DNA of 58,493 nt, counting the filler, from Sanchytrium tribonematis (taxonomy: Eukaryota): the NCBI GenBank assembly GCA_018985235.1. It is 7 parts of 7 records of this genome, joined end to end, with 100 filler letters (N's around TTAATTAATTAA, not from the genome) between each part and the next. Parts side by side here need not be neighbours in the genome. Positions count along the whole stretch, not along the records: positions 33,668 to 41,901 come from JADGIG010000386.1; 6 more parts are not named here. One strand, 5' to 3'. The notes below the pieces were generated by a model. It had not been told where the DNA came from. It worked only from the letters and a program-made list of their open reading frames with translations, and searched no databases. Each line of letters starts with the position of its first letter. The first letter of the stretch is position 1. The position numbers and the translations under genes are program-made. Shown here piece by piece: positions 36,242 through 37,792 of this stretch.

Positions 36242-37792
36242 TCATTCAAAGAAATTATCATCCACCAGTATATTTTTAAAGTCTAAAAAATCATTTTGAT
36301 TATGACAATCGATTGTCTTGCTTTTTAACCCATTGTAAAATTTGATTAAATCATTGAAAACATCATTTGTACCTTCTTCAGTATCTGCGTTACTAGTTGT
36401 TAATTTTACCAAATCATTATTTCGAGATTTCCCTTCTTCAAATTCGAATGAAAAGATTCTGTTTCTACAAATATACCACAAATATGACAATCTTTGAATG
36501 CTGCGTGGAGAATACAGAATGCAATCCTCGTATTTATCAAGCATAGCATAAAATTTAAAATGGTCCACAGATGATACAGTAGCCCATTCTAACATCAATG
36601 GAACAATATCTTGACAATCTGAACCACATTTGACAATATCTTTAACATCATTCTTTTCGTCGAGCATTGACAATGATTTCAAATCTGTATTTGCATAATA
36701 TTTGGATGGCATTTCACCTATTTCAAAGCACCTTTTTTTATATGGATTGATACCCAGTTCATAGATTAATAAAGTATTAATAATAATATCAAGCACTTGT
36801 TCCTTTGATACTCCTTCAAAGTAAAGTTCATAATTGTCGGATCTTCTAATGATTTGAAAATCAGACACATCTTGATTAGGGAATTTTGATCGCAAAGCAT
36901 TCAATAACGCAATATCTAACAAGCGAAGATAAGCTTCTGCAACTTCATGAAAGATCAACGAGCCAGTTGGTAAACCGTGTAATCTACTTCCCTTACAATC
37001 CCCAATAGCTTTGTCAATCATTTCCATCCATATACCATGCTTTCGATTATCCCAATCCCGCTTGCCCATTTCTACAGAGGTCAATAACCATGTAAGAGTA
37101 TGTGAATATAGAGTACTGTAAAAGTTCTGAAGATCAAAGCACCAAACTCTATATCCATCAAACGCTTTGCGCTTCTCAGCCATCTTGTCGATAATTTGTA
37201 AACATTGACAAGGCATGTTTAGATAAGTTGGACTTTGATCAAAATGAATTGCGAATTGACCTGTTATCCACAAATGAGGCAATCTGGGGAATATAAATAC
37301 ATTTGGGTGGCGAGTTTCGTTTAATCGATGTGTCAAGGATTCTTTGTTTTGTTCAATCAACCCTTTTAAAGCAATTAGCTTCTTAAACCCCACAATGTAA
37401 GTAAACAATACTGAAGGCTTGTCTACAGGTCCTTTAAATAAAGGAAATGATGCATAAGTGTGCGACTTGGGAATGTAGTTAATCTTACTAGCATCAATTA
37501 GGTACTTCTTGATCTTAAAGCAACTTGGGAATAAATCAGGAAAGTAATTTTCTACATCTTCACATAACTCATTGCCACAAGCTTCATCGATTTTAAGTGA
37601 GATAAAGTAACCATCAAGTAAGTTTTCCACCGTTTGTTTTAAATATTGCGTTATATCAGTTTTTAAAAGATCAAGCGCTTTCTGTGCATTTTCAGGTTTA
37701 TCGATTCCATAATGAGTCCAATTAATACCGTCAACATATTCCGACCACTGTTCTGTAATAATAGAGTCCTTTCTTGGTAATCTCGACGACAT
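36242..37792 (-). CDS. Bacterial-type (Abi/UG/DRT-like) reverse-transcriptase homolog with altered catalytic motif
   Basis: RT3-like FDLQNFYSTLYSHTLTWLL, RT4-like HGLPTGSLIFHEVAEAYLRLLD, RT5 position IIRRSDNYELY (canonical RYxDDY) and RT6-like LGINPYK. First ATG at 37792 (the frame is open from 37882). No intron seen. Confidence 0.8.
   Translation of the reverse strand: MSSRLPRKDSIITEQWSEYVDGINWTHYGIDKPENAQKALDLLKTDITQYLKQTVENLLDGYFISLKIDEACGNELCEDVENYFPDLFPSCFKIKKYLIDASKINYIPKSHTYASFPLFKGPVDKPSVLFTYIVGFKKLIALKGLIEQNKESLTHRLNETRHPNVFIFPRLPHLWITGQFAIHFDQSPTYLNMPCQCLQIIDKMAEKRKAFDGYRVWCFDLQNFYSTLYSHTLTWLLTSVEMGKRDWDNRKHGIWMEMIDKAIGDCKGSRLHGLPTGSLIFHEVAEAYLRLLDIALLNALRSKFPNQDVSDFQIIRRSDNYELYFEGVSKEQVLDIIINTLLIYELGINPYKKRCFEIGEMPSKYYANTDLKSLSMLDEKNDVKDIVKCGSDCQDIVPLMLEWATVSSVDHFKFYAMLDKYEDCILYSPRSIQRLSYLWYICRNRIFSFEFEEGKSRNNDLVKLTTSNADTEEGTNDVFNDLIKFYNGLKSKTIDCHNQNDFLDFKNILVDDNFFE

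What the first reader, a model, noticed from the sequence alone, without database searches (positions are those of the whole stretch)
36242..37792. Bacterial defence-type (Abi/UG/DRT-like) reverse transcriptase homolog embedded in a eukaryotic contig
Seen: D-L-Q-N-F-Y-S-T-L-Y-S-H-T-L-T-W, G-L-P-T-G-S..E..L..LD, R-R-S-D-N-Y and L-G-I-N motifs in RT order and spacing. The gene is on the same contig as U1-C and Nha1, about 580 bp from the Nha1 start. Established: the D(I/L)xxFYxS(I/L)Y(T/S)HxxxW signature marks the prokaryotic AbiA/AbiK/UG/DRT group, many of them anti-phage enzymes that make templated or untemplated DNA. It is not the LINE, LTR, telomerase, group II intron or rvt pattern. Inference: horizontal acquisition of a prokaryotic immune RT by a fungus-like eukaryote. 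The YxDD motif reads RSDN, so activity is uncertain. The exact subgroup cannot be assigned by eye.
Basis: partly seen in the sequence, partly recalled or inferred. Interest (0 to 1): 0.85.

Follow-up and report, generated by a model that had tools for sequence, protein, structure and literature searches.

The report
Bacterial immune polymerase family in fungi
This gene encodes a relative of bacterial anti-phage reverse transcriptases, sits among ordinary eukaryotic genes, and belongs to a multi-copy family in alga-parasitic sanchytrid fungi whose active site is altered; it was likely taken once from bacteria and likely works as a crippled polymerase reused as a sensor, and this copy is probably decaying.

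Summary
Confirmed and extended. The 516-aa ORF is a Class 1 UG/Abi reverse-transcriptase homologue (PADLOC AbiK 4.5e-19; predicted fold closest to Abi-P2, AbiK, DRT4, DRT6, Z 17-18.5). It is not a one-off: 24 related proteins were found, at least 8 in Amoeboradix and 4 in Sanchytrium. They form one side of a strongly supported branch (100/99) apart from the 49 other RTs in the tree. The best prokaryotic matches are only 24-38% identical, over the RT core alone, so simple contamination is unlikely. RSDN is a family trait: the first YxDD aspartate is kept in 24 of 24, the second in 0 of 24, the dNTP-binding arginine in 0 of 18, and 7 of 23 have also lost the motif A aspartate. The likeliest reading is a pseudo-polymerase family used in sensing or defence (0.5); a slow protein-primed transferase is the main rival (0.3). 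The window's copy has lost its C-terminal tail by frameshifts and lies beside, probably outside, a Helitron carrying an SSB. No bacterial subgroup could be named as donor. Read-level linkage and expression were not testable.

The parts
36242..37792 (-). ORF, 516 aa, Class 1 UG/Abi RT homologue (RT domain plus helical domain)
36713..37546 (-). RT-like fingers/palm domain, residues 83-360, starting at the YFPDxxPxCF motif that aligns with DRT4/DRT6
37406..37408 (-). Leu129, in place of the dNTP-positioning arginine (DRT4 Arg75)
   Evidence: PMC12783706 section 8
37133..37135 (-). Asp220, motif A catalytic aspartate, retained
36833..36847 (-). RRSDN: motif C with Tyr replaced by Arg317, first Asp (319) kept, second Asp replaced by Asn320
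36323..36688 (-). Predicted all-helical domain, residues 369-490, matching the Class 1 helical (alphaRep) domain; moderate to low model confidence
36130..36262 (-). Out-of-frame remnant of the C-terminal tail found intact in P0002, P0004 and P0005; frame breaks near 36259 and 36216 with deletions
37872..38106 (.). Tandem duplication, two 117-nt copies, 99% identical, upstream of the RT start
38123..38152 (.). 11-bp perfect hairpin, candidate Helitron2-type terminus separating the RT from the element
   Evidence: (z -5.25); PMC3627910 passages
38758..39240 (+). SSB-family single-strand binding protein, divergent from the RT gene
   Evidence: (PF00436 E 1.3e-7)
39275..41901 (+). Helitron-like Rep, runs off the contig end
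   Evidence: (PF14214 E 4.8e-15)
34385..35665 (-). Na+/H+ exchanger (NHA1-like), host neighbour
34134..34337 (+). U1 snRNP C-like zinc finger gene, host neighbour

Best explanation
The gene is one paralogue of a multi-copy sanchytrid family related to bacterial Class 1 anti-phage reverse transcriptases, likely acquired once from bacteria, and it likely works as a polymerase-dead or nearly dead scaffold that binds nucleotides or single-stranded DNA as a sensor in defence or another genetic conflict. Shown: fold, family, active-site changes, neighbours. Inferred: single transfer before the Amoeboradix-Sanchytrium split, loss of processive DNA synthesis, sensing role, and that this particular copy is decaying under relaxed selection next to a Helitron insertion.
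For: Fold and profiles place it with Abi-P2, AbiK, DRT4, DRT6, UG15 (Z 16.6-18.5) above AbiA (12.2), group II intron RT (12.0) and telomerase (10.5). 23 family rows form one side of a branch at 100/99 with the diagnostic columns removed, and sub-branches mix the two genera. Active site: second motif C Asp 0 of 24, fingers Arg 0 of 18, motif C Tyr 1 of 24, against 35 of 35, 35 of 35 and 26 of 35 in bacterial-type rows. In DRT4, R75A impairs and D149A abolishes defence, with polymerase activity tracking defence; AbiK Y245A makes no long products. 7 of 23 members keep only one of three aspartates, yet several are still 540-630 aa long in both genera, so the family is kept without a full catalytic triad. 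Variable C-termini, including a ubiquitin-like domain in P0060 (E 6.7e-9). Window copy: tail frameshifts; 16 of 31 private changes hit sites conserved in distant P0004, against 2 of 15 for P0002 (Fisher p 0.022).
Against: The window protein keeps both aspartates whose loss kills AbiK (Asp163, Asp247 equivalents), the fingers lysine and the Asn/Lys pair that positions dNTP in DRT4; the D,D,N state is held in 15 of 23 members at about 20% identity, which looks like selection for metal binding. Ty1 RT D211N still polymerises in vitro (abstract). Nothing here shows a defensive role, a ligand or expression. The donor is unresolved and the trees are unrooted with long branches. The tail frameshifts could be assembly errors.
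Confidence: 0.5

Rival explanations
1. The D,D,N members are live but slow, template-independent, protein-primed nucleotidyl transferases, probably Mn2+-preferring, making short ssDNA or adding a few nucleotides; the one-aspartate paralogues are regulatory partners.
For: Asp220, Asp319, Lys120, Asn349, Lys352 kept; Asp319 invariant in 24 of 24; Ty1 D211N keeps activity with kpol down 223-fold and Mn2+ preference (that D211 is the second YXDD aspartate is recalled); negative-strand RNA virus polymerases use GDN (recalled).
Against: Three losses act together (second Asp, fingers Arg, motif C Tyr); no conserved priming tyrosine was found at the AbiK, Abi-P2 or DRT4 positions; the invariant Asp sits in a tight turn and may be structural (inference).
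Confidence: 0.3
2. The gene is passenger cargo of a Helitron-like element, and the family spread as mobile-element cargo without a host function.
For: SSB and Helitron Rep lie 965 bp from the RT start on the same contig; many family members lie on short contigs; Helitrons are known to carry bacterial-derived Fanzor genes.
Against: The only perfect stem of 9 or more pairs in the contig lies between the RT and the SSB and fits a Helitron2 terminus, leaving the RT outside; paralogues are about 20% identical, not near-identical copies; two pairs share contigs as in gene clusters.
Confidence: 0.12
3. The RT comes from a co-cultured bacterium, endosymbiont or virus and was joined to fungal DNA by amplification or assembly.
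For: Published sanchytrid assemblies shrank from 48.7 and 37.1 Mb to 10.5 and 11.2 Mb on decontamination; the ORF has no intron; linkage could not be checked with reads.
Against: No prokaryotic relative above about 38% identity, and only over 96-295 residues; no confirmed relative in viral or metagenome contig scans; bacteria carry one intact copy (41 of 1,304 sampled genomes matched, one with two), not 8 altered ones; GC 33.6% and GC3 0.30 lie within the host-gene range (a weak test because AT-rich bacterial genes score alike).
Confidence: 0.06

Closest known systems
DRT4 (UG15) and DRT6
   Same: RT plus helical domain, stand-alone gene, about 500-600 aa, YFP..P..F N-terminal motif, FY.SIYTH...W and G.P.G motifs; best family-profile match in PDB is DRT6 (E 4.7e-32); 15 of 17 members scanned match Drt6 best.
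   Different: No YIDD, no Arg75 equivalent, no conserved Tyr125 equivalent; eukaryotic, multi-copy, extra C-terminal domains; does not fall inside the DRT4/6 group in the tree.
AbiK and Abi-P2
   Same: Top profile (AbiK) and top structural matches (Z 18.5, 18.4) for the window protein; motif A and first motif C aspartates kept.
   Different: Y(R/V)DD is RSDN; scores far below those of true members (E about 1e-19 against 1e-101 to 1e-210); separate branch.
rvt genes (UG37)
   Same: A UG/Abi-type, non-mobile RT already known in eukaryotes, with protein priming (PMC9226505 section 27).
   Different: rvt genes are single-copy with an N-terminal coiled coil and lie outside Class 1; the window protein does not match the RT_UG37 profile at E 1.
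Telomerase and Penelope-like RTs
   Same: Eukaryotic RTs proposed to derive from bacterial UG RTs (PMC12632851 passages).
   Different: They group with Class 2, use RNA templates and keep the catalytic triad; structural Z only about 10.
Prp8 RT-like domain
   Same: Precedent for a catalytically dead RT fold kept as a scaffold (recalled); appears at Z 9.7.
   Different: Derived from group II intron RT, single-copy, spliceosomal.

Membership tests
Class 1 UG/Abi RT | RT domain most similar to Class 1 groups | tested here: met
   24 of 24 members match Drt6, UG30, Drt4, AbiP2 and AbiK profiles at E 0.001; fold
Class 1 UG/Abi RT | C-terminal alpha-helical repeat domain | tested here: met
   Helical residues 369-490 in the model, aligned to Abi-P2/AbiK/DRT6 through residue 451-511; pLDDT about 45-78 there
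Class 1 UG/Abi RT | Nested within the Class 1 clade on a rooted tree | tested here: inconclusive
   Own branch at 100/99; no outgroup, sister unresolved
AbiK / Abi-P2 | Y(R/V)DD active site | tested here: not met
   RSDN; second Asp 0 of 24; feature from PMC8632793 passage
AbiK / Abi-P2 | Priming tyrosine in the fingers loop | tested here: inconclusive
   Tyr97, 106 and 113 lie in the region; none invariant in the family
AbiK / Abi-P2 | Groups with AbiK or AbiP2 sequences | tested here: not met
DRT4 / DRT6 | Asp149/Asp240/Asp241 triad and Arg75 | tested here: not met
   Two of three Asp; Leu for Arg
DRT4 / DRT6 | Asn271/Lys274 dNTP pair | tested here: met
   Asn349/Lys352 in the window protein; N 15 of 23, K 12 of 23 in the family
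AbiK / Abi-P2 / DRT4 | Trimer or hexamer assembly | not tested
   No complex prediction was obtained
AbiK / Abi-P2 / DRT4 | Protein-primed untemplated DNA synthesis and antiviral activity | not testable with these tools
   needs biochemistry
rvt (UG37) | Match to RT_UG37 profile; single copy; N-terminal coiled coil | tested here: not met
   No UG37 hit at E 1; multi-copy
Retroelement RT (LINE, LTR, group II intron, telomerase) | RVT Pfam match and closest fold | tested here: not met
   No Pfam hit; Z 10-12 against 17-18.5
Helitron2 cargo | Gene lies between the element's termini | tested here: inconclusive
   Hairpin between RT and SSB suggests outside; other end off contig; no second copy in the window

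The most novel reading that the evidence does not exclude
Sanchytrid fungi run a eukaryotic DRT-type immune system: D,D,N paralogues make protein-linked ssDNA with a remodelled two-aspartate site, assemble with dead paralogues that carry swapped C-terminal domains, and are tripped by single-strand binding proteins of viruses or rolling-circle elements such as the SSB-carrying Helitron next door, as bacterial DRT4 is tripped by phage SSB.
Probability: 0.12. Interest if true: 0.92.

Novelty: new variant of a known kind. Interest (0 to 1): 0.7.

Why it matters
Class 1 UG/Abi polymerases are described as prokaryotic; the eukaryotic offshoots of the wider UG/Abi group that I found in print are rvt, telomerase and Penelope-like RTs. 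Six full-text searches listed no paper on AbiK/DRT4-like genes in eukaryotes. An expanded, remodelled family in a fungal phylum with about 10 Mb genomes would be a further case of a bacterial immune gene kept by eukaryotes, and a natural series (three, two, one aspartate) for asking what this fold does when DNA synthesis is reduced or lost, which bears on the open question of how Class 1 DRTs couple DNA products to effector action.

Tried and rejected
No whole genome is held for the window and no sequencing runs could be obtained, so linkage, depth, expression and the reality of the tail frameshifts are untested. Pattern scans found no confirmed relative in viral contigs (82 and 102 pattern matches) or metagenome contigs (250 and 202), so no second family locus with DNA context was seen. 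A word-based search with the 24-row alignment returned only the four known proteins. The Helitron Rep had no hit at E 0.001 among 4,628 candidates. No Rfam match at E 0.1 on the contig: no sign of a known ncRNA partner. Promoter-like sites in the divergent gap are at chance level (5 against 6.0). Codon usage does not discriminate. The C-terminal tail of longer paralogues gave a low-confidence model (pLDDT 51) with weak Nbs1/Xrs2 BRCT matches (E 0.05-0.09) but only generic alpha/beta matches in the wide search (best Z 5.2): a BRCT reading is not supported. A complex prediction of two copies was not obtained: no verdict. An AU test of a DRT4/6 sister position returned no answer. Earlier-findings look-ups were empty.

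Full report
Observation. The window is a chain of contigs joined by N-linker spacers; the relevant contig is 33668-41901. In order it carries an unidentified ORF, U1-C, an Na+/H+ exchanger, the RT, a 117-nt tandem duplication, an 11-bp hairpin, an SSB and a Helitron Rep that runs off the end.

What kind of protein. Pfam gives nothing. PADLOC gives 15 families at E up to 1, all RTs, led by AbiK, Drt6, AbiP2, UG30, Drt4. PDB sequence hits are Abi-P2 and AbiK. The AlphaFold model (pLDDT 72, built on a 150-row alignment rich in bacterial RTs) matches Abi-P2 Z 18.5, AbiK 18.4, DRT4 and DRT6 17.9, UG15 17.0, then AbiA 12.2, group II intron RT 12.0, telomerase 10.5 (Foldseek agrees). This is the RT plus helical-domain architecture of Class 1 UG/Abi RTs (PMC9226505 section 22). 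It does not match the rvt (UG37) profile.

A family, not an orphan. The word search found three relatives at 34-77% identity, one labelled Amoeboradix gromovi. A profile search of 1.84 billion representatives gave 646 hits, of which the best 150 were listed. From these and their clusters I picked 24 proteins by rank and by altered motif C: the window protein, 8 labelled Amoeboradix, 4 labelled Sanchytrium, 10 unnamed ENA records and one (P0044) not looked up. Counts are lower bounds. Because the picking used motif C, I rebuilt the tree without those columns: 23 of the 24 (P0007 left out as too short) form one side of a branch at 100/99 against 49 other RTs; the first tree, with all 24, gave 100/95. 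Sub-branches mix the two genera, so the expansion likely predates their split. Branches are long and the root is not inferred, so the donor is unnamed: 15 of the 17 members scanned match Drt6 best and the family profile's best PDB match is DRT6, but the window protein itself prefers AbiK. P0002 and P0054 share a 47-kb contig and P0015 and P0018 are neighbours on a 7-kb contig, by their source names. The window's organism is inferred to be sanchytrid-like from the 76% identical named paralogue and the gene-dense, 33% GC eukaryotic context; I did not test this with marker genes.

Not a simple contaminant. The GTDB scan returned 23 loci at 24-29% identity over the RT core. Across 189 non-family sequences the best BLAST alignments to the window protein were 26-38% over 96-295 residues, and 186 of 189 have the second aspartate. 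In 1,304 sampled genomes of four phyla, 41 matched the family profile, all but one with a single copy. Viral and metagenome contig scans found no confirmed relative. Against this: published sanchytrid assemblies came from heavily contaminated material (PMC8371127 passages), codon usage is not discriminating, and reads could not be examined.

Active site. Using DRT4 numbering from PMC12783706 (passages and section 8) and the alignment: Asp149 is kept (Asp220; 16 of 23 in the family), Asp240 kept (Asp319; 24 of 24), Asp241 lost (Asn 16, Thr 6, Tyr 1, Ser 1), Tyr238 lost (Tyr in 1 of 24), Arg75 lost (0 of 18, also when the register is allowed to slip), Asn271/Lys274 kept in the window protein; 35 bacterial-type rows keep all three aspartates and the arginine. 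Seven of 23 members keep one aspartate only. In AbiK, D163A and D247N abolish activity and Y245A blocks long products (PMC3177184 passages, PMC9508834 passages and section 21). In Ty1 RT, D211N keeps slow, Mn2+-preferring activity (PMC2148107 abstract). So the one-aspartate branch is almost surely dead as a polymerase, and the D,D,N branch, which includes the window protein, is at best slow. No conserved priming tyrosine was found.

This copy. Homologues continue 55-80 residues further; in the window the tail survives only out of frame, with breaks near 36259 and 36216. The copy has 31 private substitutions against 15 in P0002 over 306 columns, and 16 of 31 against 2 of 15 fall on sites conserved in distant P0004 (Fisher p 0.022). 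That fits recent relaxed selection; assembly error could explain the frameshifts but less easily the substitution pattern.

The Helitron. Helitron2 elements have a terminal hairpin right at the 5' end (PMC3627910 passages). The only perfect stem of 9 or more pairs on the contig lies at 38123-38152, between the RT start and the SSB, so the RT probably lies just outside the element. Other stems of 10-11 pairs occur elsewhere in the window (three other places), so this is suggestive only. DRT4 is triggered by phage SSB (two bioRxiv abstracts); adjacency to an SSB here may be chance and is seen once.

How it most likely works. Shown: Class 1 fold, eukaryotic neighbours, paralogue family, altered site. 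Inferred: one transfer, expansion, loss of processive synthesis, retention of the fold with variable tails (ubiquitin-like in P0060; a small unassigned alpha/beta domain in others). Rapid divergence, copy-number growth in small genomes and domain swapping are what conflict genes usually show (established pattern, recalled), hence a sensor or scaffold role at 0.5, a slow protein-primed transferase at 0.3, mobile cargo 0.12, contamination 0.06.

Novelty. Six searches of the held library (listings only) showed no report of AbiK/AbiP2/DRT4-like genes in eukaryotes. I opened no supplements; the RT tables of PMC12632851 and PMC9226505 could contain such sequences, and subscription papers are mostly not covered. 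It works like, but is not a member of, AbiK, Abi-P2, DRT4 or DRT6: a new eukaryotic variant of Class 1 UG/Abi RTs. Interest 0.7.

Noticed in passing
P0019 (one search hit, source Logan, 2-kb contig): 600-aa DRT4/6-like protein with an intact xVDD motif and Ser/Thr/Gln-rich termini that look eukaryotic; falls with DRT4/6, not with this family. Possibly a second, independent and still active eukaryotic acquisition.
   Followed up: partly
P0060 residues 481-544: Ubiquitin-like domain fused to a family member labelled Amoeboradix (PF00240 E 6.7e-9).
   Followed up: partly
window 38123-41901: Helitron-like element with a bacterial/organellar-type SSB (PF00436, TIGR00621-like) in the same orientation as Rep; the Rep had no close relative in the protein search.
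   Followed up: partly
window 37872-38106: Near-perfect 117-nt tandem duplication between the RT start and the hairpin; insertion scar or assembly artefact.
   Followed up: no
window 10634-12633: Three ORFs (160, 118, 172 aa) with no Pfam or PADLOC match, beside an LRR gene and a split DUF7869 transposase-like gene (13738-15421).
   Followed up: partly
window 5254-7754: Fragments of retroelements: gag/zinc-knuckle/protease-like ORFs (+) and an RNase H ORF (-).
   Followed up: no
window 42113-43432: Secreted-type protein with three chitin-binding modules and a GH16 domain.
   Followed up: no
whole window: Seven contigs joined by six N44-TTAATTAATTAA-N44 linkers; neighbours across a linker are not biological neighbours.
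   Followed up: yes
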